From an uncultured Serinicoccus sp. (GTDB lineage Bacteria; Actinomycetota; Actinomycetes; Actinomycetales; Dermatophilaceae): a DNA stretch of 64,000 bases. A program made the translations under genes and the position numbers. The notes beneath the pieces are model-generated. The model saw only the letters and a list, made by a program, of their open reading frames with translations, did no database searches and was not told where the DNA came from. The stretch lies in the NCBI RefSeq assembly GCF_947500995.1, contig NZ_CANMUA010000012.1, forward strand, positions 1,300 through 65,299. Reading direction: 5' to 3'. Shown piece after piece: positions 1-51,205 of the stretch (position 1 is the first letter of the stretch; every line of letters starts with the position of its first letter).

Positions 1-358
1 CGAGGACGACCGGTTCGCCGGGTTCGACGCCGCTGTGCTGATGGAGGTCATCGAGCACGTGGACCCCTCGAGGCTAGAGGCTGTAGAGCGGGTTGTGTGG
101 GGCGCCGCCCGGCCCGGGCTTGTCGTGGTGACGACCCCGAACAGCGAGTACAACGTCCTGTACGAAGGGCTTGTGGGGATGCGGCACCCTGACCACCGGT
201 TCGAGTGGACCCGCTCGGAGTTTGCTGAATGGTCCGAGCATGTTGCCACCGCCTACGGCTACACGGTGCAGCGGCGCGGCGTCGGAGAGGTCGACCAGAC
301 ACTTGGCGCGCCCACGCAGATGGCCGTCTTCACCCGGCAGGAGGGCCGAGATGAGTGA
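1..358 (+). CDS. hen1: RNA 3'-terminal ribose 2'-O-methyltransferase Hen1, C-terminal fragment (5' end lies outside the window)
   Basis: Frame 2 is open from base 2. The translation ...FDAAVLMEVIEHVDPSRLEAVERVVWG...TTPNSEYNVLYEGL...MRHPDHRFEWTRSEFAEWSEHVATAYGY matches the conserved C-terminal methyltransferase block of bacterial Hen1 (VIEH.., RH.DHRFEWTR.EF..W). The TGA stop at 356-358 overlaps the next gene's ATG by 8 nt. Confidence 0.85.
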   Translation, partial: EDDRFAGFDAAVLMEVIEHVDPSRLEAVERVVWGAARPGLVVVTTPNSEYNVLYEGLVGMRHPDHRFEWTRSEFAEWSEHVATAYGYTVQRRGVGEVDQTLGAPTQMAVFTRQEGRDE

Positions 359-14314: not shown

Positions 14315-14330
14315 GGACGCAGCGTAAGGC

Positions 14331-40427: not shown

Positions 40428-40530
40428 CCGCAGAATCTAGCAGCGGCACGGCGGGGTGCGAGGGCGCGCAGAGTGGTCGGCTCTGCCGGCGGCGGGGCGC
40501 CGCTGCGGCCTGGGTAGGGTCGCTCGGGTG

Positions 40531-41220
40531 ATGACCGCACGCCGCCTCGTGGAGGACGCCCGGACGCTGCTCGTCGACTTCGACGGCCCGCTCGCCCGCC
40601 TGTTCCCCGGTGCGTCGTGGGCCGAGCTGGGCGAGCGGGTGCGGGCGGAGGCGCACCGGCTCGGTGGAGCGGAGCTGGCTCAGCGGCTGGAGGGCGAGGC
40701 CGACCACGTGCAGTGCCTGCGCCTGGTCGACGAGCAGTCCCCCCGGCTGCTCGCCCCCCTGGAGGAGCTGGTCACCGAGCTCGAGCTCGACGCCGCCTCC
40801 CGGGTGTCCCCCCGACCCGGGGCGCTGGCCCTCATCGACCGGACCCTCGAGCGCGGCGCCTCCTTCGCCATCGTCACCAACAACACCCCCGAGGTGGTGT
40901 CGCGTGTGCTGGACCGTGCCCGACCGGGCACGAGCGGCCGGCTGCACGTGGTCGGACGCTCCGCCGGCCACGTCCGCGACCTCAAGCCGGAGCCGGACCT
41001 GCTGCTGCGGGCGATGCGCCTCCTCGGCGCCCGCCCCGAGGAGTCGGTCTTCCTCGGGGACTCGGTGACCGACGTGCAGGCCGGGCAGGCGTCCGGCGTG
41101 CCCGTGGTCGGCGTGGCCGAGGAGGAGAGCCGTCGTCAGGAGCTCCTGGCCGCGGGCGCGGTGGGAGCCGTGGCCGGGGTGGACGCCCTGCTCCCCGCGC
41201 GGCAGCCGCGCCGACCCTAG
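40531..41220 (+). CDS. HAD-superfamily hydrolase, 229 aa
   Basis: Motif I is LLVDFDGPL, followed by FAIVTNN and motif IV FLGDSVTDVQAG. The start is ATG 40531 or GTG 40528. Confidence 0.75.
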   Translation: MTARRLVEDARTLLVDFDGPLARLFPGASWAELGERVRAEAHRLGGAELAQRLEGEADHVQCLRLVDEQSPRLLAPLEELVTELELDAASRVSPRPGALALIDRTLERGASFAIVTNNTPEVVSRVLDRARPGTSGRLHVVGRSAGHVRDLKPEPDLLLRAMRLLGARPEESVFLGDSVTDVQAGQASGVPVVGVAEEESRRQELLAAGAVGAVAGVDALLPARQPRRP

Positions 41221-41819
41221 CCCGGCGCCACCGCGACCACCACCACCAGCACGAGCGCCGCCACCGGGATGAGCGCGGTCTGCACCCTGTCGACCAGCAG
41301 CAGCGTGCGGGCGACCGCGGGCCGCAGCCGCGACAGGGCGACGTCCCTCGCGGCGGTCGTCGCCCGCAGCCAGCGCAGCCCGATGGCGACCGAGACGATG
41401 TGCGGCACGCCCGAGCTCATCCGTCGACGCGCGTGGTGCAGGTCGGCACGGGCGACGGGCAGGGCCGCCACCACGCCCAGCGCGGTGGAGGCCACCCGCA
41501 GACCGAGGGCCAGGACCACCCCCACGAACGGGCTCAGCAGGGCGGCGACGATCTCCGGCACCGTGGCGAGGTGCAGCTGGGAGACGTCCTGGGTCGTGCC
41601 GGTCCACACCACCCACGCCACGCCCAGGATGAGGCAGGGGATCCAGAGCCGACGGACCATGCGCACCACGAGCAGCGCCCACGCGTCCGAGACACCGCCC
41701 ACGGCCCGGCCCGCGAGGGACTCGACCTCGTCCGTGACGGCCGTCGGCGCCGGCTCTCGCCGGCTCCGGCCCTCGGGGTTCCGACGGACCCAGCCAGTCA
41801 CCTGTCTCACCTCCGTCAC
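41217..41819 (-). CDS. hypothetical membrane protein (200 aa)
   Basis: Third-position GC is very high. At least four hydrophobic segments are present (e.g. LWIPCLILGVAWVVW, IVAALLSPFVGVVLALGL, LIPVAALVLVVVVAV). It starts with GTG, and its stop overlaps the HAD stop (CTAG). Confidence 0.5.
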   Translation of the reverse strand: MTEVRQVTGWVRRNPEGRSRREPAPTAVTDEVESLAGRAVGGVSDAWALLVVRMVRRLWIPCLILGVAWVVWTGTTQDVSQLHLATVPEIVAALLSPFVGVVLALGLRVASTALGVVAALPVARADLHHARRRMSSGVPHIVSVAIGLRWLRATTAARDVALSRLRPAVARTLLLVDRVQTALIPVAALVLVVVVAVAPG

Positions 41820-41876
41820 CTGTCGTCAACACCCTGCTCCCCCCTCCGCAGGAGAAGATCGCCGGTCACGACCATA

Positions 41877-43292
41877 ATGTGGAGGATGGGTGAGCAGGCG
41901 AGGACCGCACCGCGGCGGGTCGAACGGGTGGCCGACACCCGGCTCCCGACCGACCACGCGACCTTCCGGATGACGGCATACCGCGACGACACGGGGATGG
42001 ACCACGTCGTCCTCAGCCTCGGCGTGAGCGACGACGACGGCCCCGACCTCCCGCCGCCCCTCGTGCGGGTGCACTCCGAGTGCCTCACCGGGGACGCCCT
42101 CGGGTCCCGCCGCTGCGACTGCGGCGAGCAGCTCCAGCAGGCGCTGCACCTCCTCGCCCGAACCGGCCGGGGCGCCGTCGTCTACGCCCGCGGGCACGAG
42201 GGCCGGGCGATCGGCCTCGGCGAGAAGCTGCGGGCCTACGCCCTCCAGGACCGGGGGGTCGACACCGTCGACGCCAACCTCGCCCTCGGGCACCCCGCGG
42301 ACGCCCGCACCTACGACCACTGCGCCGCGATGCTGCTCGACCTCGGGATGCGACGCGTCCGGCTGCTGTCGTCCAACCCGGCCAAGGAGCTGGCGCTCAG
42401 CGCTCTCGGGATCGAGGTCGTGGAGCGGGTGCCGCTCGTCGTCCCGGACCGCGAGGAGAACGCCTTCTACCTGGCCACCAAGCGGACGCGGATGGGGCAC
42501 GACGAGGCGGACCAGGACGAGTGGGAGCAGGACGAGTGGGAGCAGCTGCTCGCCGGGCGGATCCCGGCGTCCGGTGAGCTCGGACACCGCTACGGCGACC
42601 TCAACCGGGCCGACGGCCCCCTCGTCCTGGCCCAGCTCGGCCAGAGCCTCGACGGCTTCATCGCCAGCCGCACCGGCGACGCCGCGTTCGTCACCGGCGA
42701 GCAGGACCGGGAGCACCTCCACCGGCTGCGCGCCCTCGTGGACGCGGTCGTCGTGGGCGCGGCCACCGTGGCCTGCGACGACCCCCGCCTCACGGTCCGA
42801 GCGGTGCGCGGGTCGAACCCCGTCCGCGTCGTGCTGGACCCGCGCGGCGTGACCCCGGCCGACGCCTCGGTGCTCACCGACGGCGCGGCGCCGACGCTGT
42901 GGGTCCTCGGGGGCGACACCCCCCTCGGCCCGGTGGGTGAGCACGTCGAGGTGCTCCGCTGGCCCGACGACGGGCCGATGGAGCCCCGAGCCGTGCTCGA
43001 CCTGCTCGCCTCGCGCGGTCTCCACCGGGTGCTCGTCGAGGGTGGTGGGCGGCTGGTGTCGGCCTTCGTCCGGGCCGGAACCGTGGACCGGCTCTACCTC
43101 ACCACCGCACCCGTGCTCATCGGGGACGGCGTACCGGGGCTGCGCGTCGCCGGCGAGGACCTGCTCTCGGACGCCCTGCGCCCGCCCGCGCGCCGCTACC
43201 AGCTCGGCGACGACATGGTCACCGAGCTGGAGCTGCGGCGCCGGGGCGCCGTGCCCTCGGCGCTGGCCGCCGACGTCCCGGACGCCAGCTGA
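41877..43292 (+). CDS. fusion protein: GTP cyclohydrolase II (RibA-like) + RibD C-terminal-type pyrimidine reductase domain, 471 aa
   Basis: The N-terminal half is colinear with E. coli RibA: VHSECLTGDALGSRRCDCGEQL (Zn cysteines), GAVVYARGHEGRAIGL and LRAYALQDRGVDTVDAN. An acidic linker (DEADQDEWEQDEWEQ) follows. The C-terminal half shows the RibD_C pattern: LAQLGQSLDGFIA, DAVVVGAATVACDDPRLTVR and VLVEGGGRL. Confidence 0.85.
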   Translation: MWRMGEQARTAPRRVERVADTRLPTDHATFRMTAYRDDTGMDHVVLSLGVSDDDGPDLPPPLVRVHSECLTGDALGSRRCDCGEQLQQALHLLARTGRGAVVYARGHEGRAIGLGEKLRAYALQDRGVDTVDANLALGHPADARTYDHCAAMLLDLGMRRVRLLSSNPAKELALSALGIEVVERVPLVVPDREENAFYLATKRTRMGHDEADQDEWEQDEWEQLLAGRIPASGELGHRYGDLNRADGPLVLAQLGQSLDGFIASRTGDAAFVTGEQDREHLHRLRALVDAVVVGAATVACDDPRLTVRAVRGSNPVRVVLDPRGVTPADASVLTDGAAPTLWVLGGDTPLGPVGEHVEVLRWPDDGPMEPRAVLDLLASRGLHRVLVEGGGRLVSAFVRAGTVDRLYLTTAPVLIGDGVPGLRVAGEDLLSDALRPPARRYQLGDDMVTELELRRRGAVPSALAADVPDAS

Positions 43293-44011
43293 TGTCGGCG
43301 CAGGCGCCCGCCACGCGGCTCCGCGGCGGCGGGGTGGTCGGCTCGGCCGTCGTCCTCCTCCCCCTGGCCCTGTGCGTGGGCCTGGTCACCCGGGTGGGGC
43401 CCGGTGTCGGTGTGGGGGTGCTCGCGGTGGCCGCCGGCCTGGTGGTGCCGGTCGTGGCCACCGGGGCGCTGGTGCGGCGTCGTCCCGCGGCGGTGAGCCC
43501 GCCGGACGTGGTCACCCTCGCCCGGGTCGCGCTGACGGGTGTGGTCGGGACCGCGACCGTGCTCGTCCTCGCCGGCCAGCTGCCGGCCCGCACCTGGGCC
43601 GTCGCCCTGGTCGTCGGCGCCGCGCTGCTGCTGGACGCGGTCGACGGGTGGCTCGCCCGCGCGACCGGGACCGCGAGCGCGGCCGGGGCTCGGCTGGACA
43701 TGGAGTCCGACGCGGCCCTGCTCCTCGTGCTGTCGGTGCTGGCGGCCGTGACGCTGGGCTGGTGGGTCGTGGCGATCGGCGCCATGCGCTACCTCTTCGT
43801 GCTCGCCTCCTGGGTGCGGCCGGCCCTGCGGGGAGAGCTGACCCCGAGCCTGGCGCGACGGACCGTCGCGGCCGTCCAGGGCATCGCCCTGTGGGTCGCC
43901 CTCGTGCCGCTCGTGCCCGCCCCCTTCGCCGCAGCGGGCACCGCCGTCGCCCTGGCAGCGCTCACGGCCTCGTTCGCGCACGACGTCGTCGACCTCGAGG
44001 CGCGCGGGTGA
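43292..44011 (+). CDS. CDP-alcohol phosphatidyltransferase family protein
   Basis: The complete family motif D-x2-D-G-x2-A-R-x8-G-x3-D-x3-D is read as DAVDGWLARATGTASAAGARLDMESD. It is a polytopic membrane protein. The ATG shares one base with the upstream TGA (TGATG). Confidence 0.85.
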   Translation: MSAQAPATRLRGGGVVGSAVVLLPLALCVGLVTRVGPGVGVGVLAVAAGLVVPVVATGALVRRRPAAVSPPDVVTLARVALTGVVGTATVLVLAGQLPARTWAVALVVGAALLLDAVDGWLARATGTASAAGARLDMESDAALLLVLSVLAAVTLGWWVVAIGAMRYLFVLASWVRPALRGELTPSLARRTVAAVQGIALWVALVPLVPAPFAAAGTAVALAALTASFAHDVVDLEARG

Positions 44012-45033
44012 GCGGCGGAGCCGGGACGGCCCTGGCCTACTGGGCCACCGCGCCGGGTCGGGGCGAGCTGCGCCGGGAGCAGCTGCCGGAGCCGGGCCCG
44101 GACGAGGCCCTCGTGCGGGCGTCGTTCAGCGGCATCAGCCGCGGCACCGAGCTGCTCGTGCGCCGCGGCGGCGTGCCCGACTCGCAGGTCGACCGGATGC
44201 GGGCGCCCTTCCAGGAAGGAGGCTTCCCCTTCCCGGTGAAGTACGGCTACCTCTCCGTCGGGGTGGTCGAGCGCGGCCCGCGCGCGTGGGTCGGGGTGCG
44301 GGTGTTCTGCCTGCACCCGCACCAGGACCGGTATGTCGTGCCCGTGTCGGCCCTCACCCGGGTCCCGGACGACGTGCCCTCGTCCCGCGCGGTCCTCGCC
44401 GGCCCGACCGAGACGGCGCTCAACGCCCTCTGGGACGCCCCGCCCTGCGTGGGCGACCGCGTGGCCGTCGTGGGCGCCGGGCTCATCGGCGGAGCCCTCG
44501 CCCTGCTCCTGCGCCGCTTCCCGCTGAGCCGTCTCCAGGTGGTGGAGGCCGACGCCACCCGGCGCCGGGAGCTGGTCGACGCGGGCCTGGACGCGGTGCC
44601 GCCGGAGGAGGCGCTGGACGACTGCGACCTGGTCTTCCACGCCTCGGCCAGCGAGCCGGGCCTCGCGCTGGCGCTCGCCCTCGCCGGGGACGACGCCGAC
44701 GTGGTCGAGCTGTCGTGGTTCGGCTCCCCCGCACCGCAGGTGCCGCTCGGCGAGGACTTCCACTCCCGCCGGCTGCGGCTGGTCGCCAGCCAGGTCTCGA
44801 GGGTCGGTGACGCCCGCCGCCACCGGCGGGACCCGGCGGCCCGGCTCGCCACGGCCCTCGACCTGCTGTCCGACCCCGCGTTCGAGACCCTCCTCGCCGG
44901 GGTCAGACCCTTCCCGGCCATGCCCGCAGCGCTCGAGGAGCTGGAGCACGACGACGACCTCTCCGGGTGCGTCGTCCTGTCCTACCCCGACGCGCAGGAC
45001 CCCGAGACCGACGCCCCCGCCCGACACCCCTGA
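44008..45033 (+). CDS. medium-chain (MDR, zinc-type fold) dehydrogenase-like protein, BchC-like, 341 aa
   Basis: It shows GISRGTELLV, PVKYGYLSVGVV and the Rossmann motif VAVVGAGLIGGALA. I did not see the classic Cys/His zinc ligands. GTG 44008 overlaps the upstream TGA (GTGA). Confidence 0.7.
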   Translation: MSGGAGTALAYWATAPGRGELRREQLPEPGPDEALVRASFSGISRGTELLVRRGGVPDSQVDRMRAPFQEGGFPFPVKYGYLSVGVVERGPRAWVGVRVFCLHPHQDRYVVPVSALTRVPDDVPSSRAVLAGPTETALNALWDAPPCVGDRVAVVGAGLIGGALALLLRRFPLSRLQVVEADATRRRELVDAGLDAVPPEEALDDCDLVFHASASEPGLALALALAGDDADVVELSWFGSPAPQVPLGEDFHSRRLRLVASQVSRVGDARRHRRDPAARLATALDLLSDPAFETLLAGVRPFPAMPAALEELEHDDDLSGCVVLSYPDAQDPETDAPARHP

Positions 45034-45048
45034 CCCACGAGGAGCACG

Positions 45049-45429
45049 ATGTTCGGACTGACCGTCAGCGACCACGTCATGATCGCCCACAGCCTGCCCG
45101 ACCCGTTCTTCGGGCCGGCCCAGGGGCTGCACGGCGCCACCCTGGTCGTCGAGGCCACCTGGCGCCGACGCGAGCTGGACGAGCACGGGGTGGTGGTGGA
45201 CATCGGCGAGGCGGGCGGCCACCTCGCCGCGGTGCTCGACCCGCTGCGCTACCAGAACCTCGACGAGCACCCCGCGTTCGCCGGCCGGCTCAGCACGACC
45301 GAGGCCGTCGCGGCCCACGTCGCGCACGCGCTGGCCGACCGCGCCGACCCCGCCATCGACGGCATCGGGGTCGTCGTGCGCGAGCATCCGCAGGCCTGGG
45401 TGACGTATGACCTCGACCTCCGCTCGTGA
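45049..45429 (+). CDS. 6-pyruvoyl-tetrahydropterin synthase/QueD-like (T-fold) protein
   Basis: The 126-aa protein has the pattern VSDHVMIAHSL....GLHGATLVVEATW, as in PTPS/QueD (fsAaH.L ... lHGH.y.v.v). The HGH is replaced by HGA. Confidence 0.7.
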   Translation: MFGLTVSDHVMIAHSLPDPFFGPAQGLHGATLVVEATWRRRELDEHGVVVDIGEAGGHLAAVLDPLRYQNLDEHPAFAGRLSTTEAVAAHVAHALADRADPAIDGIGVVVREHPQAWVTYDLDLRS

Positions 45430-46477
45430 GCGGGGTCCGTCGCGGGCGCTGATCCTGCCCGGAGACCTCGCCGGGCCCAGCGGGGGCAACCACTACAACG
45501 ACCGGGTCGTCCGCGAGCTCGACGCCCGAGGGCTCGCGGTGGCGGTCGAGCGACTGCCCGGGGCGTGGCCCCGACCGGCCGAGCCTGACCGGTCGGCGCT
45601 GCGCGAGGCGCTGGGACGGTATACCGACGTGGTGGTCGACGGGATCATCGGGTCGGCCGCACCCGAGGAGCTCGCGTGGGCCCGTGCGCACGGCGTCCGG
45701 GTCGCGGTGCTGGTGCACCTGCCGCTGCCCGCCGAGGGCGGCACGAGCGCCCCGGAGCGCCGACTTCTGGAGGAGACGGAGCGGGCCGCGCTGCACGCCG
45801 CGGACACGGTGGTGGCGACCAGCGACTGGGCCCGGGACGACCTGCTGCGCCGCTACGGGCTCGCCGGGGTGCGCTCCGTGCCTCCCGGCGTGGACCTGGC
45901 GCCGCCGGCGGCCGGGAGCACTCCCCCGCACCTGCTCCTCCTCGGCGCGGTCACCGCCCGCAAGAACCCGCTCGTCCTGCTCGACGCGCTGCGGACGCTG
46001 ATGGACCGCCCCTGGACCGCCTCCCTCGTCGGGCCTCCGGGCCCGGACGAGGGCTACGTCGCGACGGTACGGGAGCGCTCGGCCGAGCTCGAGGGCCGCG
46101 TCCGGGCGCTGGGCCCGTGCCGCGGCGAGGACCTCGAGGAGATCTGGGGCGCCACCGACCTCCTGACCCTGCCCTCCCGCGCCGAGACCTACGGGATGGT
46201 GGTGACCGAGGCGCTGGCGCACGGCATACCGGCGCTGGTCCCTGCGCGGACGGGGGCCGTCGAGGCGCTGCACGGGTCGGGCGAGCGCGACGGTCTGCCC
46301 CCGGCCGGAGCCACGGTCGACGGAGCCGACCCGCAGGCCTGGTCCACGGCCCTGGCCCGGTGGCTCGACGACGAGGGCCTGAGGCGCGCCTGGCGGGCGG
46401 GCGCGTCGGCCCACCGGGATAGACTCCGTGGGTGGGCCACGACCGCGACGGACTTCACCCGGGCTCTGCGGTGGTAG
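45407..46477 (+). CDS. glycosyltransferase, GT4 family (GT-B fold)
   Basis: SGGNHYNDRVVREL resembles the GT4 N-terminal loop. The E-x7-E motif is read as ETYGMVVTEALAHGIPALV. It overlaps the PTPS-like gene by 23 nt. Confidence 0.85.
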   Translation: MTSTSARERGPSRALILPGDLAGPSGGNHYNDRVVRELDARGLAVAVERLPGAWPRPAEPDRSALREALGRYTDVVVDGIIGSAAPEELAWARAHGVRVAVLVHLPLPAEGGTSAPERRLLEETERAALHAADTVVATSDWARDDLLRRYGLAGVRSVPPGVDLAPPAAGSTPPHLLLLGAVTARKNPLVLLDALRTLMDRPWTASLVGPPGPDEGYVATVRERSAELEGRVRALGPCRGEDLEEIWGATDLLTLPSRAETYGMVVTEALAHGIPALVPARTGAVEALHGSGERDGLPPAGATVDGADPQAWSTALARWLDDEGLRRAWRAGASAHRDRLRGWATTATDFTRALRW

Positions 46478-47328
46478 CCCGTCCCGTCCCGGCCGACTGG
46501 CTGGCGCTGCGACGCCGCGCCGACCACCGCGCCCGCGAGGACGCCCTCGACCTGCTGGAGCTGCTGACCCACCACCTGCGCGCCCGCGGGGTCGACGAGC
46601 TCGTGGTGGTCGACGTGGGGGCCGGCACCGGTTCCAACCAGGCCTGGCTCGCACCGCGCCTGCCCGGACACCAGCGGTGGGTCCTGGTCGACCACGACGC
46701 CGACCTGCTCGAGCACGAGACCTCGACCGGGGCCGACGACCGCATCACGACCGAGCGCGCCGTCGCGACCGTGGAGGACCTGCCCTCCCTGGTCCCGCAG
46801 GACGGCACGGCCCTGCTCGCGTGCGCAGCCCTGCTCGACCTGCTGTCCGCGGCAGAGATCGAGACGCTCGCCCACGTGGTCGCACCGGACGCGGCGCCCG
46901 GAGCGGCTGCACTGCTGAGCCTCACCGTCACGGGCGAGGTCGTGCTCACGCCGGGCCACCCCGCCGACGCGGTCGTCACGACCGCCTTCGACGCGCACCA
47001 GCGGAGGGAGGGTCGGCCCGGGCCGGACGCCGCGGAGGTGATGGCCCGCGCCCTGCGCCGTCGCGGCGCCCGCGTGGAGTTGCGGGCGACGGACTGGCTC
47101 CTGGGCACCGAGAACGAGCCGCTCCTGCGCCGGTATCTCCACGACCGCGCCGCGGTGGCGGTGGAGCACGACCCCGGGCTCGCTCCCGTGGTGCAGGGGT
47201 GGCTCGAGGAGCGGTCGCTCCAGCTCGAGGCCGGCTCGCTCCGGGCGCGCGTCGGCCACCTCGACCTGCTGAGCCTGCCGCCCGAGCCCGTCGACGAGGG
47301 CGCCGGGGCGGCGCCGCGGAGCCGGTGA
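46432..47328 (+). CDS. class I SAM-dependent methyltransferase
   Basis: Motif I is VVVDVGAGTGSN, followed by a LLDLLS post-I region. The start is ATG 46432 or GTG 46471; both overlap the GT4 gene end. Confidence 0.75.
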   Translation: MGHDRDGLHPGSAVVARPVPADWLALRRRADHRAREDALDLLELLTHHLRARGVDELVVVDVGAGTGSNQAWLAPRLPGHQRWVLVDHDADLLEHETSTGADDRITTERAVATVEDLPSLVPQDGTALLACAALLDLLSAAEIETLAHVVAPDAAPGAAALLSLTVTGEVVLTPGHPADAVVTTAFDAHQRREGRPGPDAAEVMARALRRRGARVELRATDWLLGTENEPLLRRYLHDRAAVAVEHDPGLAPVVQGWLEERSLQLEAGSLRARVGHLDLLSLPPEPVDEGAGAAPRSR

Positions 47329-48254
47329 GCGACACCCTGGTCGCCAGCCGGCCACGGCCCCGGCGCGTCCGCCTCGTGGTCGGTGCGACGCTGCAGGTCG
47401 GGCTCACCCTGGGCCTGCTCGGCCTCGTCGTCACGCAGTGGGGGCTCAGCCCCTTCACCTCCGCGGCCCGTGCCCTGCCCTGGTGGGCGGTCGTGGCCGG
47501 CCTCGGCCTGGGGGCGGCCGGCGTGGTGCTCCAGGCGCTGCGCTGGCGGCTCGTCGCCCGGCACCTCCAGATCTCCCTCCCCGTGGGTCCGGCCGTCGCC
47601 CGCTGCTGGCAGGCCGCCTTCCTCAACAGCGTGCTGCCCGGAGGAGTCGCCGGCGACGCGCTCCGGGCGGCCGACGACAGCAGCGACGCCGAGGCGCCGG
47701 ACGCCCGGCGCGCGCTGGCCAGCGGTTTCGCCGCCGTCGCCGCCGAGCGCCTGGTGGGGACCACGGTGGTGCTGGTCGCGGCGGCGGTGGCCCTGCTGGG
47801 CCCGGTCCCGCTGGTCGGGGTCGCCTGCCTGGCCGGCGGCGTCGTCACCGCGGCCGTGGCCTGGAGGTGGCTGCGGGTGCTGCCGCTGCGGGACCTCGCC
47901 CTCGTCCTGCTGCTGTCGGTCGCCGGGTGGGCCGCCTTCGTCGGGATGTTCGTGCTGGCCGTCGTCGTCGTGGCACCCGACGTGGAGGTGTCCCTGGCAC
48001 CGGGGCTCGCCACCGTGTCCGTCGCGGCGATGTCGGTCCCCGTCACGGTCGGCGGGTGGGGGACGCGTGAGGCCGCCGCGGGGTGGATCTTCATGGTGCG
48101 GGGGCTCGACATGGGCACCGGGGTCACCGTCTCCATCGGCTACGGGATCCTCGCGCTGCTCTCCACGCTCCCCGGTGCCGCGATCCTGGCCGTGCGCGTC
48201 GTGCCCCGGTGGCGCGAAGCCGGTCGGGCCCGCCATCGACGGCGCGAGGGGTGA
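47325..48254 (+). CDS. lysylphosphatidylglycerol-synthase-TM-type (UPF0104, flippase-like) membrane protein, 309 aa
   Basis: It has about eight hydrophobic segments, and LRWRLVARHLQISLP....FLNSVLPGGVAGDALRA is typical of the MprF flippase-like/UPF0104 family. There is no aminoacyl-transferase domain. GTG 47325 overlaps the upstream TGA. Confidence 0.7.
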   Translation: MSDTLVASRPRPRRVRLVVGATLQVGLTLGLLGLVVTQWGLSPFTSAARALPWWAVVAGLGLGAAGVVLQALRWRLVARHLQISLPVGPAVARCWQAAFLNSVLPGGVAGDALRAADDSSDAEAPDARRALASGFAAVAAERLVGTTVVLVAAAVALLGPVPLVGVACLAGGVVTAAVAWRWLRVLPLRDLALVLLLSVAGWAAFVGMFVLAVVVVAPDVEVSLAPGLATVSVAAMSVPVTVGGWGTREAAAGWIFMVRGLDMGTGVTVSIGYGILALLSTLPGAAILAVRVVPRWREAGRARHRRREG

Positions 48255-48399: not shown

Positions 48400-49662
48400 A
48401 TGACGAGGCACCCGGTCCGCACCGTCGACGCCCTCGTCGCCGCAGGTTCCTGGGGCCTCAGCGTGACGGTGCTGCTCTGCCTCCCGCTCCTCGCTGCGGG
48501 CGAGCCGGCCTCCGCCGACTCGCTCCCGGCGGTGGCAGGCGCGGCCTGGTGGGCGGGACTCGCACTCGTGTCGGTCCAGGCGCTCGTCCTGCTGTGGCGG
48601 CGACGGGCCCCCCGGTCCGTCCTGGTGCTCGTCGCCGCCGGCGCCCCGGCGGCGGCGCTCGCGGGAATGGACGCGGGCACCGGGGTCACCTCCGTGGCGG
48701 TCATCGTCGCGGCGTTCGCCGCCGTCCTGCTCATGGGGGTGGTCCGGGCGCTGCCGGCAGCCGCTGCCGCGGCGTTCCTCGTGGGCTCGGCCCAGGCGTT
48801 CGTGTCCTGGAGCGAGGCCGGCGCCGTCCTCGCGGTCCTGGGCTCGTCGGTGGTGCAGGGGGTCGGGACGGTGGGCCTCCCCCTGGCCACCGCCGTGTTC
48901 GTCCGGGCCCGCCGCGACGTCGTCACCGCCCGAGCGGAGCAGGCCCAGGCCGTCGTCCGCGAGCACGACGCCCTGGTGCAGGTCGCCGTCGCACGGGAAC
49001 GGACGGCGACCGCTCGTGAGCTGCACGACATCGCCGCACACCATCTCTCCGGGATCACCGTCATGACCGGTGCCCTGGGCCGCCAGATCGACACCGATCC
49101 GGAGGGCGCGAAGCGGGCCGTCGAGCAGGTGCGGCACCAGAGCAAGGCCATGCTGCGCGACCTCCGCAGCCTCGTGACCCTGCTGCGGGAGGACGGCGGT
49201 CCGACGGGCGCCACCGCCCCGGAGACCCTCTCCTCCCTCCCGGCCCTCGTCGAGGACGCGCGGCGAGCCGGCACCGACGTCGAGCTCACCGTGCTCGGAC
49301 CCGGGCCCGGCGACGTCCTCGACGGCCGGTCGGGTCCGCTCGCTCAGTTCGGCGCCTACCGGACCGTGCAGGAGGCGCTGGCCAACGCCGCCCGGCACGC
49401 CCCCGGCGCGCGGTGCGAGGTCGTCCTCGACACCCGGGACGCACGGACGACCCGCGTCCGCGTGGTCAACCACCCGGCTCCGGCTGACGCTCCGACATCG
49501 CCGGGCACGGGCTACGGTCTCGTGGGTATGCGGGAGCGTGCCAGCCTCACGGGTGCCCACCTCTCCTACGGCCCCACCGAGGACGGTGGGTGGTGCGTCG
49601 ACCTGTCCCTTCCCGGTGCGCAGGCCGGCACCGACCACCCGGACCCGGGGCACGGAGGATGA
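48400..49662 (+). CDS. sensor histidine kinase (HisKA_3 / NarX-DesK type)
   Basis: An N-terminal block of hydrophobic segments is followed by the H-box RELHDIAAHHLSGI and the HATPase motifs EALANAARHA and GYGLVGMRERA. Confidence 0.85.
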   Translation: MTRHPVRTVDALVAAGSWGLSVTVLLCLPLLAAGEPASADSLPAVAGAAWWAGLALVSVQALVLLWRRRAPRSVLVLVAAGAPAAALAGMDAGTGVTSVAVIVAAFAAVLLMGVVRALPAAAAAAFLVGSAQAFVSWSEAGAVLAVLGSSVVQGVGTVGLPLATAVFVRARRDVVTARAEQAQAVVREHDALVQVAVARERTATARELHDIAAHHLSGITVMTGALGRQIDTDPEGAKRAVEQVRHQSKAMLRDLRSLVTLLREDGGPTGATAPETLSSLPALVEDARRAGTDVELTVLGPGPGDVLDGRSGPLAQFGAYRTVQEALANAARHAPGARCEVVLDTRDARTTRVRVVNHPAPADAPTSPGTGYGLVGMRERASLTGAHLSYGPTEDGGWCVDLSLPGAQAGTDHPDPGHGG

Positions 49663-50378
49663 TCCGCATCCTCGTGGCCGACGACGAGCCCCTGGTGCGG
49701 GCCGGTCTCTCGGCGCTGCTCTCCTCCGAGCCGGACATCGACGTCGTCGCAGCCGTGGCCGACGGCGTCGAGGCGGTGGAGCGGGCGCGGACCGAGCATC
49801 CGGACGTCGTGTGCCTCGACATCCGGATGCCCCGTCTCGACGGCGTCGCCGCCACCCGGGAGCTCGCCGGACCCGACGCCTCGCCCCCCATCCCCGTCCT
49901 CATCCTCACGACCTTCGACACCGACGAGCACCTCTTCGGGGCACTCGACGCGGGCGCCTCCGGCTTCCTCCTCAAGGACGCGGAGCCGGACGAGGTCATC
50001 GCGGCCGTCCGCTCGGTCGCCGCCGGGCACGGCACCATCGCCGACGGTCTGACCCGCCGCGTCATCGGCGAGCTGAGTGGACGCCGACGCACCCTCCCCG
50101 TCACCGCGGCGCGGGCCAGCGACGTCCTCACCCCCCGTGAGACCGACATCCTCCTGCTGCTGGCCGAGGGCCTGTCCAACGAGGACATCGCTCGCACCCT
50201 CGTCCTGGAGATCTCCACCGTGAAGTCCCACCTCGCCCGGATGATGCCCAAGCTCGGTGTCACCTCGCGCCTCCAGGCGGTGGTCTGGGCCTACCAGACC
50301 GGGCTCGTCACCGTGGGCGGCACCCCGGACCGGCCGGCCCTCCATCCAAAGGATGAACCCCCGCGGTTCCATCCTTAG
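49659..50378 (+). CDS. response regulator, NarL/LuxR family, 239 aa
   Basis: MIRILVADDEPLVRAGL...DVVCLDIRMPRLDG is the receiver domain. The C-terminal LuxR HTH reads LTPRETDILLLLAEGLSNEDIARTLVLEISTVKSHL. ATG 49659 overlaps the kinase TGA (ATGA). Confidence 0.9.
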   Translation: MIRILVADDEPLVRAGLSALLSSEPDIDVVAAVADGVEAVERARTEHPDVVCLDIRMPRLDGVAATRELAGPDASPPIPVLILTTFDTDEHLFGALDAGASGFLLKDAEPDEVIAAVRSVAAGHGTIADGLTRRVIGELSGRRRTLPVTAARASDVLTPRETDILLLLAEGLSNEDIARTLVLEISTVKSHLARMMPKLGVTSRLQAVVWAYQTGLVTVGGTPDRPALHPKDEPPRFHP

Positions 50379-50413
50379 CGGCTCGTCCCGCCCTCCCCCG
50401 CTCCCTACCGTCG

Positions 50414-51205
50414 ATGGTGACCGATCCCCCTCGACCAGGAGCCATCACCGCCATGCCCACCCTTCCGTACGACGTCACCACCTCCACAGCGCTTCGTCTC
50501 GTCGACGTGCACAAGACCTATCCGGGCGGCGCCAGACCCGTGGCTGCCCTGCGCGGGGTCACCCTCGACCTCGCGTCGGGCACCATGACCTCCGTCGTGG
50601 GCCAGTCCGGGTCAGGCAAGTCCACCCTCCTCCACGTCGCCGCCGGCCTCGACGTGCCGACCTCCGGACGGGTCGTCATCGGCGGCCACGACACCACCGG
50701 CCTCTCCGCCGACGACCTCACCCGGTACCGCCGGGAGCACATCGGGTTCGTGTTCCAGTCCTACAACCTCATCCCCCACCTGAGCGTGCTGAACAACATC
50801 GGTCTCCCCCTCGTCCTCGCCGGCCGGGAGGCCGACCCGGACTGGATCGGCCAGCTCGTCGACGCCCTGGGGCTCGCCGACCTCGTGGGGCGGCGCCCTG
50901 GTGAGCTGTCCGGTGGACAGGCACAACGGGTGGCCATCGCCCGGGCCCTCGTGGCCCGTCCCGCCGTCGTGTTCGCCGACGAGCCCACCGGCGCCCTGGA
51001 CTCCCGCACCGGGGCCCACGTCCTCGGCCTGCTCGCTGCCACCGCGCGCCGGTTCGACCAGACGGTCGTCATCGTCACCCACGACGCCCAGGTCGCGGCG
51101 ACCGCGGACCGGGTGCTGTACCTCGCCGACGGCCTGGTCGTCCACGACGAGACCGGCGCCAGTGCCGAGCAGGTCACCTCCCGCCTCCTCGCGATCGGCC
51201 GGTGA
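50414..51205 (+). CDS. ABC transporter ATP-binding protein (MacB/LolD-like)
   Basis: It has Walker A (GQSGSGKSTLL), the signature LSGGQAQRVAIARAL and Walker B (VFADEPTGALD). The alternative start is ATG 50453. Confidence 0.9.
   Translation: MVTDPPRPGAITAMPTLPYDVTTSTALRLVDVHKTYPGGARPVAALRGVTLDLASGTMTSVVGQSGSGKSTLLHVAAGLDVPTSGRVVIGGHDTTGLSADDLTRYRREHIGFVFQSYNLIPHLSVLNNIGLPLVLAGREADPDWIGQLVDALGLADLVGRRPGELSGGQAQRVAIARALVARPAVVFADEPTGALDSRTGAHVLGLLAATARRFDQTVVIVTHDAQVAATADRVLYLADGLVVHDETGASAEQVTSRLLAIGR

What the first reader, a model, noticed from the sequence alone, without database searches (positions are those of the whole stretch)
41877..48254. Seven-gene translationally coupled operon linking a GTP cyclohydrolase II-reductase fusion to a phospholipid head-group, glycosylation, methylation and flippase module (candidate undescribed pathway)
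Seven co-directional genes are packed with start/stop overlaps: TGATG at 43290-43294, GTGA at 44008-44011 and 47325-47328, a 23-nt overlap at 45407-45429, and an overlap at 46432/46471-46477. Only one gap exists, 15 nt at 45034-45048. In order, the genes are a RibA-RibD_C fusion, a CDP-alcohol phosphatidyltransferase, a zinc-less MDR dehydrogenase, a PTPS/QueD-like T-fold protein, a GT4 glycosyltransferase, a SAM methyltransferase and an MprF/UPF0104 flippase-like membrane protein. The operon contains no deaminase, DHBP synthase, lumazine synthase or riboflavin synthase, so it does not read as a rib operon. It also has no GTP cyclohydrolase I, so it does not read as a standard pterin or queuosine operon. 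Purine-ring-opening chemistry sits next to a lipid head-group transferase, a sugar transferase, a methyltransferase and a flippase-like protein. That combination suggests a membrane-anchored, glycosylated, ribityl- or ribosyl-aminopyrimidine or pteridine-type head group that is moved to the outer leaflet. I know of no characterised pathway with this gene set.
Basis: partly seen in the sequence, partly recalled or inferred. Interest (0 to 1): 0.82.

Follow-up and report, generated by a model that had tools for sequence, protein, structure and literature searches.

The report
Orphan GTP-derived glycolipid-type operon
This is a real, tightly packed seven-gene operon found in hundreds of bacterial species that appears to divert the first riboflavin intermediate made from GTP into an unknown sugar-bearing, probably membrane-anchored compound, and nobody has yet identified the product.

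Summary
Seven + strand genes (41877-48254) all show coding composition (GC3 0.92-0.96), and every junction and domain call was verified. The window is Serinicoccus, close to S. marinus.

The operon is not a rib operon. It has no deaminase, ribB, ribH or ribE and no FMN riboswitch.

It belongs to a widespread cluster built around a PTPS-IV T-fold protein. That protein is the orthologue family of S. coelicolor SCO6650 (PDB 3D7J, "uncharacterized").
- At least 581 species-level genomes carry the marker.
- In 82 loci, dehydrogenase-PTPS-IV-GT4 is nearly invariant.
- All eight domains are linked in 16 loci, from Actinomycetota to Roseovarius.
- GT4-GCHII, HAD-GCHII-RibD_C and CDP-OH-transferase/LtaS-like fusions tie the parts together.

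A new result concerns the cluster-linked cyclohydrolases. Those with the Tyr "deformylation" residue never need a creatininase-family neighbour. Those with Met/His/Leu always have one (14/14). Every variant therefore converges on the diaminopyrimidine DARPP, which the RibD_C domain then reduces.

Most likely this is a dedicated GTP-derived polyol-phosphate pathway ending in a glycosylated, methylated phosphatidyl conjugate. The product is not known. The literature had already noticed the core but assigned it no function.

The parts
41877..43292 (+). Gene 1: GTP cyclohydrolase II (residues ~15-210) fused to a RibD_C-type pyrimidine reductase (~248-450). It has no deaminase and no DHBP-synthase domain.
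   Evidence: Pfam PF00925 1.3e-59 and PF01872 5e-38. TIGR00505 ribA scores 219.5 bits, above its 205.85 cut-off. The zinc motif HSECLTGDALGSRRCDCG and Tyr121 (E. coli RibA Tyr105) are present. The reductase half hits DARPP reductases 6P8C (1.1e-25) and 2AZN (6.3e-22) ahead of bacterial RibD. It is 98% identical to the S. marinus protein.
43292..44011 (+). Gene 2: CDP-alcohol phosphatidyltransferase, a polytopic membrane protein.
   Evidence: PF01066 5.3e-13. The catalytic motif DAVDGWLAR-x8-G-x3-D-x3-D lies at residues 115-140 and is kept in 44 of 44 cluster homologues. The weak best NCBIfam neighbours are archaetidylinositol-phosphate, PIP, PS and PGP synthases, all far below cut-off. Hydrophobic segments span the protein.
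44008..45033 (+). Gene 3: NAD(P)-dependent MDR-fold dehydrogenase lacking the catalytic-zinc cysteine. It is one of the three core genes of the cluster.
   Evidence: AF2 model pLDDT 87.5. Foldseek best hits are RspB 4ILK, DHPS dehydrogenase 8WWD, threonine, sorbitol and xylitol dehydrogenases, TM 0.70-0.76. Ser44 aligns with the sorbitol dehydrogenase Cys44 zinc ligand. S44, Y81 and the GxGxxG motif are at least 95% conserved. A homologue sits next to PTPS-IV in 81 of 82 loci.
45049..45429 (+). Gene 4: PTPS-IV subfamily T-fold protein. It is the marker gene of the cluster.
   Evidence: PF01242 9.3e-22. E 8.7e-29 to PDB 3D7J 'Uncharacterized protein SCO6650'. It carries the FGPAQ signature and reads AQGLHGA where PTPS-I has CxxxHGH. 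H14, FGPAQ, H28, D51, N70, D72, E85 and E112 are at least 95% conserved in 82 loci. The signature definitions come from PMC5445326.
45407..46477 (+). Gene 5: GT4 (GT-B, retaining) glycosyltransferase. It is a core gene.
   Evidence: PF00534 7.3e-18, PF13692 and PF13439. The closest solved relatives are MshA 3C4Q (1.5e-15) and PimB' 3OKA (2e-5). A homologue follows PTPS-IV in 73 of 82 loci. It is fused to GCHII in Planctomycetota locus L045.
46432..47328 (+). Gene 6: class I SAM-dependent methyltransferase. Its start is probably the GTG at 46471.
   Evidence: PF13649 2.3e-06, 28.6 bits against a cut-off of 27. It has a VVDVGAGTG SAM motif. Homologues occur in 46 of 82 loci, and their alignments begin near residue 21. 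Other loci carry different methyltransferase families in this position.
47325..48254 (+). Gene 7: MprF-type flippase-like membrane protein (LPG_synthase_TM / UPF0104) without a synthase domain.
   Evidence: PF03706 2.4e-21. TIGR00374 'flippase-like domain' scores 29.9 bits, below its 43.2 cut-off. Bifunctional MprF scores 14.5 against 600. It has multiple hydrophobic segments. Homologues occur in 33 of 82 loci.
40456..41220 (+). Possible accessory gene: a HAD-family phosphatase upstream, separated from gene 1 by the divergent gene 41217-41819.
   Evidence: PF00702 and PF13419. A HAD gene lies directly beside the GCHII-RibD_C fusion in L001, L005 and L012. It is fused to GCHII-RibD_C as one protein in P0024 and P0077. 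Amycolatopsis loci carry an Inositol_P-family phosphatase instead. Membership in this window is inferred, not shown.

Best explanation
The operon encodes a dedicated branch off the first step of riboflavin synthesis. This branch does not make riboflavin.

Step 1 (well supported). The N-terminal half of gene 1 opens GTP to 2,5-diamino-6-(5-phosphoribosylamino)pyrimidin-4(3H)-one (DARPP).

Step 2 (supported by homology and by absence of a deaminase). The fused RibD_C half reduces DARPP directly, as in the archaeal and fungal order of steps. This gives the ribityl compound, which still carries its 2-amino group, and commits it away from the bacterial riboflavin route.

Step 3 (inferred). The invariant core of zinc-less polyol-type dehydrogenase, PTPS-IV T-fold protein and GT4 transferase remodels and glycosylates this polyol phosphate.
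- My preferred chemistry is oxidation of the ribityl 2'-hydroxyl. Reductase plus dehydrogenase then equal a stepwise Amadori rearrangement.
- The 5-amino group can then close a dihydropterin ring in the pterin-binding T-fold pocket.
- An unclosed ribityl-diaminopyrimidine is equally allowed by the data.

Step 4 (inferred from domain families and fusions).
- The methyltransferase decorates the product.
- The CDP-alcohol transferase joins it by a phosphodiester to diacylglycerol from housekeeping CDP-DAG. This parallels PGP and PIP synthases acting on polyol phosphates.
- A HAD or IMPase-type phosphatase removes the leftover phosphate.
- The MprF-like protein moves the lipid to the outer leaflet.
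- In many other genomes an LtaS/EptA-like membrane enzyme, often fused to the transferase, may pass the phospho-head group on to an envelope acceptor. That gene is not in this window.
For: Reality and identity of the genes.

Co-conservation:
- The PTPS-IV marker was found in at least 581 species-level genomes.
- In 82 loci, homologues of the window proteins occur as follows: DH 81, GT4 73, RibD_C 49, MT 46, GCHII 44, CDP-OH transferase 44, flippase-like 33.
- All eight domains are present in 16 loci and at least six in 45 loci.
- These loci include Micrococcales, Propionibacteriales, Micromonospora, Lentzea, Amycolatopsis, Streptomyces, Thermoleophilia, Gaiellales and the alphaproteobacterium Roseovarius, with varied gene order.
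- The flanking histidine kinase, MFS transporter and orf200 are essentially never conserved (at most 1 of 82 loci). Response-regulator-family hits occur in 10 of 82 loci but at scattered positions.

Fusion proteins: GT4-GCHII, HAD-GCHII-RibD_C, and CDP-OH transferase with a multi-TM sulfatase-fold protein.

Convergence on DARPP:
- 29 cluster-linked GCHII with Tyr at the E. coli Tyr105 position have no creatininase-family neighbour.
- All 14 with Met, His or Leu have one adjacent.
- None with a non-Tyr residue lacks one.
- Gene 1 has Tyr121.
- From my own knowledge of Spoonamore et al. 2006 and Grochowski et al. 2009: the Met variant SCO6655 stops at the formylated product, and archaeal ArfB, a creatininase-family enzyme, removes that formyl group. 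The review PMC13151069 confirms only that one S. coelicolor copy has a non-flavin function.

Reductase type: the best solved relatives are DARPP reductases.

Not riboflavin: no deaminase, ribB, ribH or ribE, and no FMN riboswitch.

Polyol-phosphate logic:
- The closest characterised relatives of the GT4 (MshA) and of the transferase (PIP, AIP and PGP synthases) both act on polyol phosphates.
- The dehydrogenase model resembles sorbitol, xylitol, threonine and DHPS dehydrogenases.
- Phosphatases recur in the clusters.

Donor: no cytidylyltransferase is conserved in the clusters, so the CDP donor is probably the housekeeping CDP-DAG.

Precedents: GCHII product to a pterin via an Amadori step in Chlamydia (PMC4161248), and GCHII product to a pyrimidine glucoside, vicine, in faba bean (bioRxiv 10.1101/2020.02.26.966523).
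Against: - No product, intermediate or enzyme activity has been measured for any gene of this operon. Steps 3 and 4 rest on family-level homology.
- 19 of 82 loci (Pseudarthrobacter, Sinomonas, Paenarthrobacter and others) show only DH-PTPS-IV-GT4 within 10 kb. Their species were not among the best 120 homologues of an Arthrobacter fusion protein. The core may therefore work on another substrate or make a soluble product.
- The RibD_C half scores below the curated cut-offs of both the archaeal reductase and ribD_Cterm models. RibD_C proteins share the DHFR fold, so a different reduction is possible.
- Zinc-less MDRs are often ene- or quinone-reductases rather than alcohol dehydrogenases.
- CDP-alcohol transferases can also use non-lipid CDP donors.
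- The LtaS-like partner is absent from the window.
- A published but undocumented remark links PTPS-IV to F420.
Confidence: 0.5

Rival explanations
1. The end product is a soluble glycoside of a pterin or pyrimidine, comparable to cyanobacterial pteridine glycosides or plant vicine. It would be made by GCHII, reductase, dehydrogenase, PTPS-IV, GT4 and methyltransferase. The two membrane proteins would serve export or an unrelated lipid task.
For: - DH-PTPS-IV-GT4 is the only near-invariant block. The CDP-OH transferase (44 of 82) and the flippase-like protein (33 of 82) are often unlinked.
- The Georgenia alba locus has the fusion gene plus the core but no membrane genes within 10 kb.
- The closest GT4 relative, MshA, glycosylates a soluble polyol phosphate.
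- Vicine shows that a GCHII product can end as a glucoside.
Against: - In the window the membrane genes are translationally coupled inside the operon, with gene 2 sitting between genes 1 and 3.
- The full set, including both membrane genes, recurs in distant taxa with shuffled order.
- All 44 transferase homologues keep the catalytic motif.
- A third membrane enzyme, LtaS/EptA-like, joins in 33 loci and is fused to the transferase.
Confidence: 0.2
2. The phospholipid is only a carrier. As with phosphatidylglycerol for LtaS or phosphatidylethanolamine for EptA, the phospho-head group is flipped and then transferred to a cell-envelope polymer. The final product would then be a decoration of wall or lipoglycan.
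For: - 33 of 82 loci carry a multi-TM protein with a C-terminal sulfatase/alkaline-phosphatase-fold domain. This is the architecture of LtaS, EptA and OpgB.
- In L026, L037, L065 and L073 it is fused to the CDP-OH transferase.
- Some loci add an Acyl_transf_3 membrane acyltransferase and ECF sigma factors, which are typical of envelope functions.
Against: - No such gene lies in the 64-kb window.
- The family has no PDB or NCBIfam relative at sequence level, so its activity is unknown.
- A sulfatase-fold domain could equally be a phosphatase or phosphodiesterase.
Confidence: 0.15
3. Gene 1 simply supplies riboflavin or the F420 precursor by an archaeal-type route (cyclohydrolase, then reductase, with PTPS-IV as the missing deaminase-like step). 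The lipid and sugar genes would be neighbours by accident.
For: - Gene 1 passes the ribA equivalog-domain cut-off and keeps the Tyr residue for the canonical product.
- The reduce-before-deaminate order matches the archaeal route.
- I could not check for a second rib gene set in this genome.
Against: - There is no deaminase, DHBP synthase, lumazine synthase or riboflavin synthase, and no F420 gene among the conserved neighbours.
- There is no FMN riboswitch.
- GT4-GCHII and HAD-GCHII-RibD_C fusions, and cross-phylum linkage to GT4 and membrane genes, are not expected for a cofactor supply line.
- The cluster occurs in Bacteroidota and Planctomycetota MAGs.
- The review PMC13151069 says the S. 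coelicolor paralogue has a function unrelated to flavin synthesis.
Confidence: 0.07
4. It is a strain-level secondary-metabolite cluster, for example a toxoflavin- or pteridine-type antibiotic.
For: Toxoflavin-type pathways also begin with a GCHII and a RibD-like enzyme plus methyltransferases (my own knowledge, not tested here).
Against: - It is conserved in at least 581 species-level genomes of several phyla, with orthologues 45-70% identical.
- It has none of the toxoflavin-specific partners, no resistance or efflux gene, and no regulator conserved with it.
- The composition is the same as, or more GC-rich than, the flanks, with no sign of recent transfer.
Confidence: 0.05

Closest known systems
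Streptomyces coelicolor SCO6650/SCO6655-type cluster (PTPS-IV cluster)
   Same: Gene 4 matches SCO6650 (PDB 3D7J) at 8.7e-29 and shares the FGPAQ signature. Streptomyces loci whose PTPS is 81% identical to SCO6650 carry the same set: CDP-OH transferase, DH, PTPS-IV, GT4, MT, flippase-like, RibD_C and GCHII.
   Different: In Streptomyces the cyclohydrolase and reductase are separate genes. The cyclohydrolase has Met at the Tyr position, and a creatininase-family gene is added. In the window a single Tyr-type GCHII-RibD_C fusion does the job and HAD is the associated phosphatase. The function of the Streptomyces cluster is itself unknown.
Archaeal and fungal early riboflavin steps (GTP cyclohydrolase, ArfB deformylase, DARPP reductase ArfC/Rib7)
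   Same: A GTP-opening enzyme, optional creatininase-family deformylase and reduction before deamination. The reductase half is closest to DARPP reductases 6P8C and 2AZN.
   Different: No deaminase, DHBP synthase, lumazine synthase or riboflavin synthase follows. The reductase scores below the curated archaeal equivalog cut-off, 108 against 186 bits. The downstream genes are sugar and lipid enzymes.
Phosphatidylinositol / PIM and phosphatidylglycerol head-group pathways (PIP synthase or PgsA, then phosphatase, then GT4 PimA/PimB')
   Same: A CDP-alcohol transferase with an intact catalytic motif, a phosphatase, a GT4 transferase related to MshA and PimB', and a need to flip the lipid.
   Different: All scores to PIP, PGP and PS synthase models are far below cut-off (27 bits or less against 107-180). 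The alcohol would come from GTP ring opening rather than from inositol or glycerol. A T-fold protein and an MDR dehydrogenase have no counterpart in those pathways.
GTP cyclohydrolase I / PTPS pterin pathways and cyanobacterial pteridine glycosides
   Same: A T-fold PTPS-family protein with the conserved pterin-anchoring glutamate (E112), a glycosyltransferase and a methyltransferase. The Chlamydia RibA + TrpF bypass shows a GCHII product can become a pterin.
   Different: There is no GTP cyclohydrolase I. PTPS-IV lacks the catalytic Cys and one zinc His of PTPS-I and PTPS-II (AQGLHGA instead of CxxxHGH). No pterin product has been shown.
MprF and LtaS / EptA head-group handling systems
   Same: Gene 7 has the MprF flippase-type membrane domain. 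Related loci add an LtaS/EptA-like multi-TM sulfatase-fold protein.
   Different: Gene 7 has no aminoacyl-PG synthase domain, scoring 14.5 bits against a 600 cut-off for MprF. The sulfatase-fold partner is not in the window and has no sequence-level match to any solved LtaS, EptA or other PDB chain.

Membership tests
GTP cyclohydrolase II (RibA) | Score above the curated family cut-off, with the zinc-binding Cys triad in the HSECLTGD...C-x-C motif. | tested here: met
   TIGR00505 scores 219.5 against 205.85 and NF001591 scores 219 against 148. HSECLTGDALGSRRCDCG aligns to E. coli RibA.
GTP cyclohydrolase II (RibA) | Tyr at the E. coli Tyr105 position, needed for release of formate to give DARPP (the role of this residue is from my own knowledge of Spoonamore 2006). 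| tested here: met
   KLRAYALQD aligns with E. coli KIRAYALQD, giving Tyr121 in gene 1. Tyr-type clusters lack the creatininase partner.
Bifunctional RibD (deaminase-reductase) | An N-terminal CMP/dCMP-type zinc deaminase domain. | tested here: not met
   Only PF00925 and PF01872 are found in gene 1. The alignment to eubact_ribD covers model positions 135-341 only.
Archaeal DARPP reductase (TIGR01508 equivalog) | Score above the curated cut-off. | tested here: not met
   108.1 bits against 186.45. ribD_Cterm scores 124.4 against 150.15. The closest solved structures are nevertheless DARPP reductases.
Canonical bacterial rib operon | Linked ribB, ribH and ribE genes and an FMN riboswitch. | tested here: not met
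   None are among the operon or the annotated neighbours. There is no Rfam FMN hit in the window or in 7 related loci.
CDP-alcohol phosphatidyltransferase | The motif D-x2-D-G-x2-A-R-x8-G-x3-D-x3-D in a polytopic membrane protein. | tested here: met
   DAVDGWLARATGTASAAGARLDMESD at residues 115-140, kept in 44 of 44 homologues. PF01066 scores 50.1 bits against 22.
PIP / PGP / PS synthase (specific equivalogs) | Score above the curated cut-offs. | tested here: not met
   The best scores are 27.2 against 180, 24.1 against 107, 20.3 against 170 and 19 against 109.
PTPS-I (QueD) / PTPS-II (6-pyruvoyl-tetrahydropterin synthase) | The CxxxHGH or CxxxxxHGH motif, meaning a catalytic Cys and the second and third zinc His (motifs from PMC5445326 and PMC5041015). 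| tested here: not met
   Gene 4 reads A24-Q-G-L-H28-G-A30. Ala24 and Ala30 are at least 95% conserved in 82 loci.
PTPS-IV subfamily (SCO6650-like) | The FGPAQ signature, close similarity to SCO6650, and PF00925 and PF01872 in the neighbourhood. | tested here: met
   FGPAQ lies at residues 21-25. E 8.7e-29 to 3D7J. The neighbourhood criterion comes from PMC5445326 and is met in the window and in 44-49 of 82 loci.
Zinc-dependent MDR alcohol / polyol dehydrogenase | MDR fold with a Rossmann GxGxxG motif. | tested here: met
   AF2 pLDDT 87.5 and Foldseek TM 0.70-0.76 to MDR dehydrogenases. G156, G158 and G161 are conserved.
Zinc-dependent MDR alcohol / polyol dehydrogenase | The catalytic zinc ligands (Cys44, His69, Glu70 of sorbitol dehydrogenase). 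| tested here: not met
   Cys44 aligns with the invariant Ser44. There is no ADH_N Pfam hit. The His/Glu positions were not aligned residue by residue; Y81-L82 is conserved where GHE is expected (my reading).
GT4 glycosyltransferase | Glycos_transf_1 C-terminal and GT4 N-terminal domains above cut-off. | tested here: met
   PF00534 scores 65.1 against 26.4 and PF13439 scores 43.9 against 28.5.
MshA (mycothiol) | Equivalog score above cut-off. | tested here: not met
   69.8 bits against 462.5.
MprF | A flippase membrane domain plus a C-terminal aminoacyl-PG synthase domain. | tested here: not met
   Only PF03706 is present in a 309-residue protein. NF033480 scores 14.5 against 600.
Seven-gene operon as a conserved unit | Co-occurrence of the same gene families next to the marker in unrelated genomes. 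| tested here: met
   16 of 82 loci have all eight domains and 45 of 82 have at least six. The flanking kinase, transporter and orf200 are essentially never conserved (at most 1 of 82), and response-regulator-family hits (10 of 82) lie at scattered positions.
Second, canonical rib gene set elsewhere in this genome | ribD, ribE, ribBA and ribH present outside the window. | not testable with these tools

The most novel reading that the evidence does not exclude
The operon makes a previously unknown class of membrane phospholipid, or a lipid-carried envelope decoration, whose head group derives from the opened purine ring of GTP. That head group would be a glycosylated, methylated 2,5-diamino-6-ribitylaminopyrimidinone or the dihydropterin formed from it. 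Formation would follow a GTP-cyclohydrolase-I-independent route in which a reductase and a zinc-less dehydrogenase together replace the Amadori step, and a catalytically stripped PTPS-IV T-fold closes or handles the ring. The lipid would then be flipped outward and, in many phyla, its head group passed on by an LtaS/EptA-like enzyme.
Probability: 0.3. Interest if true: 0.9.

Novelty: new variant of a known kind. Interest (0 to 1): 0.7.

Why it matters
If the model holds, three things follow.
- A riboflavin-pathway intermediate would feed an unknown glycoconjugate or lipid in hundreds of soil and marine bacterial species. These include Streptomyces, Micromonospora, Amycolatopsis and Arthrobacter.
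- A function would be assigned to the PTPS-IV family. Its crystal structure has sat in the PDB as "uncharacterized" since 2008.
- It would explain why S. coelicolor keeps a cyclohydrolase II paralogue that stops at the formylated product.

It would also define a new head-group chemistry for the CDP-alcohol transferase, flippase and LtaS-like logic of envelope building.

Ribityl-aminopyrimidines and pterins are fluorescent and redox-active. Some are ligands of the MR1/MAIT system, so a surface-exposed form would interest immunologists as well as lipid biochemists.

The Tyr-versus-creatininase rule found here gives a simple, testable handle on the first steps.

Tried and rejected
- **An eighth coupled gene upstream.** The + strand ORF 41269-41877 ends in TAATG on the gene 1 start. 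I rejected it because its GC1/2/3 (0.56/0.76/0.89) and its Arg/Thr/Ser-rich translation mark it as the shadow of the - strand gene 41217-41819.
- **Downstream genes as part of the system.** The histidine kinase, LuxR regulator and ABC/FtsX genes are not co-conserved in 82 loci.
- **An LtaS-like or creatininase gene in the window.** None was found by tblastn.
- **Promoter and terminator consensus scans.** No hits; these scans are uninformative at this GC content.
- **Literature.** Ten searches found no product assignment. The three key older papers (Spoonamore 2006 and 2008, Phillips 2012) are not held in the library. What I say about them is from memory and is marked as such.
- **First ORF clustering of the loci.** It was polluted by antisense shadow ORFs, so I redid it with a GC3-GC2 score.
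- **A GC1-weighted gene caller for the window.** It mis-called strands and I discarded it.
- **Whether core-only Arthrobacter-group species carry the fusion gene elsewhere.** They were not among the best 120 homologues. This is a weak negative only.
- **Sequence search of the sulfatase-fold partner against PDB and NCBIfam.** No hits.
- **Long proteins with an N-terminal PTPS-IV part and no second Pfam domain.** These are probably frameshifted gene calls, and I did not use them as fusion evidence.

Full report
**1. The observation**

The window is high-GC (0.66-0.78). It comes from Serinicoccus, order Micrococcales: gene 1 is 98% identical to the S. marinus protein.

The seven + strand ORFs at 41877-48254 have GC3 of 0.92-0.96 with GC2 near 0.5. 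This is the coding pattern of this genome.

- TGATG at 43290-43294.
- GTGA at 44008-44011 and at 47325-47328.
- A 23-nt overlap at 45407-45429.
- GTG at 46432, or GTGGTAG at 46471-46477.
- A single 15-nt gap that holds a GAGGAG ribosome-binding site.

Homologue alignments suggest gene 6 starts at 46471.

The operon starts at gene 1. A + strand ORF ending in TAATG on the gene 1 start is only the shadow of a divergent membrane-protein gene at 41217-41819.

Pfam and NCBIfam confirm all seven domain calls.

**2. What the parts are**

- **Gene 1** is a bona fide GTP cyclohydrolase II. It scores above the ribA equivalog-domain cut-off and keeps the zinc motif and the tyrosine equivalent to E. coli Tyr105. 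It is fused to a RibD_C reductase with no deaminase domain. The reductase half is closest to solved reductases of the undeaminated substrate (6P8C, M. jannaschii 2AZN), ahead of bacterial RibD. It still scores below the curated equivalog cut-offs.
- **Gene 2** has the complete CDP-alcohol transferase motif.
- **Gene 3** folds as an MDR dehydrogenase (pLDDT 87.5). It is closest to RspB, DHPS, threonine, sorbitol and xylitol dehydrogenases. Ser replaces the catalytic-zinc Cys.
- **Gene 4** matches only one solved structure, 3D7J "Uncharacterized protein SCO6650" (8.7e-29). It carries the FGPAQ signature that the literature uses for the PTPS-IV subfamily. It lacks the Cys and one His of the CxxxHGH motif.
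- **Gene 5** is a GT4 enzyme nearest to MshA and PimB'.
- **Gene 6** is a marginal but real class I methyltransferase.
- **Gene 7** is the flippase-type membrane domain of MprF without any synthase domain.

**3. Neighbourhood survey**

It returned 581 confirmed matches, and 80 loci were fetched. Two more loci came from homologues of gene 1.

tblastn of the window proteins against these 82 loci gave the following counts:

| Window protein | Loci with a homologue |
|---|---|
| DH (gene 3) | 81 |
| GT4 (gene 5) | 73 |
| RibD_C (gene 1, C-terminal half) | 49 |
| MT (gene 6) | 46 |
| GCHII (gene 1, N-terminal half) | 44 |
| CDP-OH transferase (gene 2) | 44 |
| Flippase-like (gene 7) | 33 |
| HAD | 4 |
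| Flanking histidine kinase, MFS, orf200 | at most 1 each |
| Flanking response regulator | 10 (family-level hits at scattered positions) |

Sixteen loci have all eight domains and 45 have at least six. They span Micrococcales, Propionibacteriales, Micromonosporales, Pseudonocardiales, Streptomycetales, Thermoleophilia, Gaiellales and Alphaproteobacteria (Roseovarius, Geminicoccaceae). Partial sets occur in Myxococcales, Bacteroidota and Planctomycetota MAGs.

Gene order varies. In Ammonicoccus the genes are divergent, and in Lentzea the dehydrogenase is moved. The linkage is therefore selected, not inherited synteny.

The DH > PTPS-IV > GT4 block is the constant core.

A Streptomyces locus whose PTPS is 81% identical to SCO6650 carries the whole set. 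The window operon is thus a variant of the S. coelicolor SCO6650/SCO6655-type cluster.

**4. Fusions**

- GT4-GCHII is a single protein in a Planctomycetota MAG.
- HAD-GCHII-RibD_C triple fusions occur in metagenomes.
- RibD_C-GCHII occurs in the opposite order in Roseovarius.
- The CDP-OH transferase is fused to a multi-TM sulfatase-fold protein in several lineages.

These tie the purine-opening step to the glycosyltransferase and to a phosphatase. They also tie the head-group transferase to a further membrane enzyme.

**5. A rule for the first steps**

I read the residue aligned with gene 1 Tyr121 in every cluster-linked cyclohydrolase. I then looked for a creatininase-family gene in the same locus.

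| Residue at the Tyr121 position | Creatininase-family gene | Loci |
|---|---|---|
| Tyr | none | 29 |
| Tyr | one, 10 kb away, 31% identical (probably unrelated) | 1 |
| Met, His or Leu | adjacent | 14 |
| Met, His or Leu | none | 0 |

From my own knowledge, S. coelicolor SCO6655 has Met at this position and stops at the formylated product (Spoonamore et al. 2006). The archaeal enzyme that removes that formyl group, ArfB, is a creatininase-family protein (Grochowski et al. 2009). The cluster protein does hit the ArfB model weakly (2.9e-10).

The simplest reading is that all variants deliver the same deformylated intermediate, DARPP. They do so either in one step, as the window's Tyr type does, or in two.

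RibD_C is linked even more often than GCHII; 13 loci have RibD_C alone. This fits a committing reduction of DARPP drawn from the housekeeping enzyme.

**6. Not riboflavin**

- No deaminase, ribB, ribH or ribE occurs in the operon, in the annotated parts of the window or among conserved neighbours.
- Rfam finds no FMN riboswitch in the window or in seven related loci.
- A 2026 review states that the third S. coelicolor RibA-like protein has a function unrelated to flavin synthesis (PMC13151069).
- I could not check for a second rib gene set in Serinicoccus.

**7. Mechanism: what is shown and what is inferred**

Shown by sequence:
- Intact catalytic motifs in genes 1 and 2.
- Loss of the PTPS and MDR metal ligands in genes 4 and 3.
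- The linkage, the fusions and the Tyr/creatininase rule.

Inferred:

(a) GTP is converted to DARPP and then to the 2,5-diamino-6-ribitylamino compound.

(b) The dehydrogenase, which resembles enzymes that oxidise a secondary hydroxyl of polyols, oxidises the ribityl chain.
- If it acts at C2', the product is the same keto-amine that GTP cyclohydrolase I reaches by Amadori rearrangement.
- That compound would close to a dihydroneopterin-phosphate-like pterin. PTPS-IV keeps the pterin-anchoring Glu112.
- Chlamydia shows that a RibA product can be turned into a pterin (PMC4161248).

(c) GT4 glycosylates the product. Its closest relative, MshA, uses a polyol phosphate. The methyltransferase decorates it.

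(d) The CDP-alcohol transferase links the alcohol to phosphatidate.
- No cytidylyltransferase is conserved with the cluster, which points to housekeeping CDP-DAG as donor.
- A HAD or Inositol_P-family phosphatase removes the remaining phosphate, as in PG and PI synthesis.

(e) The MprF-like protein flips the lipid.

(f) Where present, the LtaS/EptA-like protein may transfer the head group outward.

I put about 0.8 on (a), 0.6 on a glycosylated derivative, 0.45 on the phosphatidyl linkage and about 0.3 on the pterin ring closure.

**8. Rivals**

- **A soluble glycoside, like vicine or pteridine glycosides.** This is favoured by the 19 core-only loci, and by Georgenia alba, which keeps the fusion gene and the core but no membrane genes.
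- **A lipid carrier for an envelope decoration.** This is favoured by the sulfatase-fold partner, which the window lacks.
- **Riboflavin or F420 precursor supply.** A review remarks, citing unpublished work, that PTPS-IV is involved in F420 synthesis (PMC5041015). The sugar and lipid genes, the fusions and the occurrence in Bacteroidota and Planctomycetota speak against it.
- **An antibiotic-type cluster.** The breadth of conservation speaks against it.

**9. Known or new**

The core has been noticed before:
- The SCO6650 structure.
- The PTPS-IV subfamily and its PF00925/PF01872 neighbourhood (PMC5445326).
- The odd SCO6655 cyclohydrolase.

No function is assigned in NCBIfam release 20; no equivalog model reaches its cut-off for genes 2-7. 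No paper in the searched library assigns one.

What appears new here:
- The full eight- to ten-function definition of the cluster, including the lipid module.
- The LtaS-like partner and the phosphatase.
- The fusions.
- The Tyr/creatininase rule.
- The recognition that the window carries a compact, fully coupled, fused variant.

I rate it a new variant of a known kind: a polyol-phosphate head-group and glycolipid logic with an unprecedented GTP-derived alcohol. There is a real chance (about 0.3) that the product is a categorically new lipid or envelope component.

**10. Verdict**

The finding is real and conserved, and it is not explained by any characterised pathway. Interest 0.7.

Noticed in passing
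82 related loci (L001-L082); window 42237-42239 (Tyr121 codon of gene 1): There is strict covariation between the residue at the E. coli RibA Tyr105 position of cluster-linked GCHII and an adjacent creatininase-family gene. Tyr goes with none (29 loci); Met, His or Leu always has one (14 of 14). His and Leu variants (Lentzea, Amycolatopsis, a Streptomyces MAG) have not, to my knowledge, been described.
   Followed up: yes
L026:6562-8919, L033:6457-8487, L037:15728-19039, L045:4178-5944, L065:5599-7992, L073:12137-14560: A multi-TM protein with a C-terminal sulfatase/alkaline-phosphatase-fold domain (LtaS/EptA-like architecture) accompanies the cluster in 33 of 82 loci and is often fused to the CDP-alcohol transferase. 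It has no PDB or NCBIfam match and is absent from the window.
   Followed up: partly
window 41217-41819 (-) and 41269-41877 (+): The divergent 200-residue membrane protein upstream of gene 1 has no Pfam or NCBIfam match and is not conserved next to the cluster elsewhere. Its antisense shadow ORF ends in a TAATG overlap with the gene 1 start and could be mistaken for an eighth coupled gene.
   Followed up: yes
window 48400-53121 (+): Directly downstream lie a HisKA_3 histidine kinase, a LuxR-type response regulator, an ABC ATPase and an FtsX-type permease. This looks like an envelope-stress or peptide-resistance module. It is not co-conserved with the cluster in other genomes.
   Followed up: partly
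P0178 (S. marinus, contig of 3,420,275 bases) versus window 44008-45033: In the reference S. marinus genome the gene 3 orthologue is on record as only 194 residues (99% identical, 57% coverage), while the window encodes the full 341 residues. This may be a gene-call difference or a frameshift in that assembly.
   Followed up: no
P0383 (855 aa), P0339 (488 aa), P0441 (824 aa): Some metagenomic proteins contain three tandem PTPS-IV domains in one chain, a covalently linked T-fold trimer. P0383 and P0441 have several hundred extra residues with no Pfam match.
   Followed up: partly
window 171-2873 (+): A 900-residue polynucleotide kinase-phosphatase-ligase (AAA_33 + Metallophos + PNKP_ligase, 1.1e-159), the bacterial Pnkp RNA-repair enzyme. 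I did not check whether a Hen1 partner follows it.
   Followed up: no
window 34867-39126 (-): A 1419-residue protein with a glucose/sorbosone dehydrogenase beta-propeller domain and a Laminin_G_3 lectin-like domain, probably secreted. Most of its length has no domain match.
   Followed up: no
window 56661-59696 (-): A 1011-residue protein with an N-terminal AAA_16 ATPase domain and about nine TPR_12/TPR_10 repeats (a STAND/NB-ARC-TPR-like architecture). It lies in a stretch whose GC content (0.66-0.67) is about 10 points below that of the operon region.
   Followed up: no
L068, L072, L080 (Amycolatopsis) around 14300-15500; L037:14600-15721; L037:8334-8939, L058:14845-15393: Lineage-specific additions to the cluster: an Inositol_P-family phosphatase in Amycolatopsis, an Acyl_transf_3 membrane acyltransferase in Solirubrobacterales, and ECF sigma factors next to several clusters.
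   Followed up: partly
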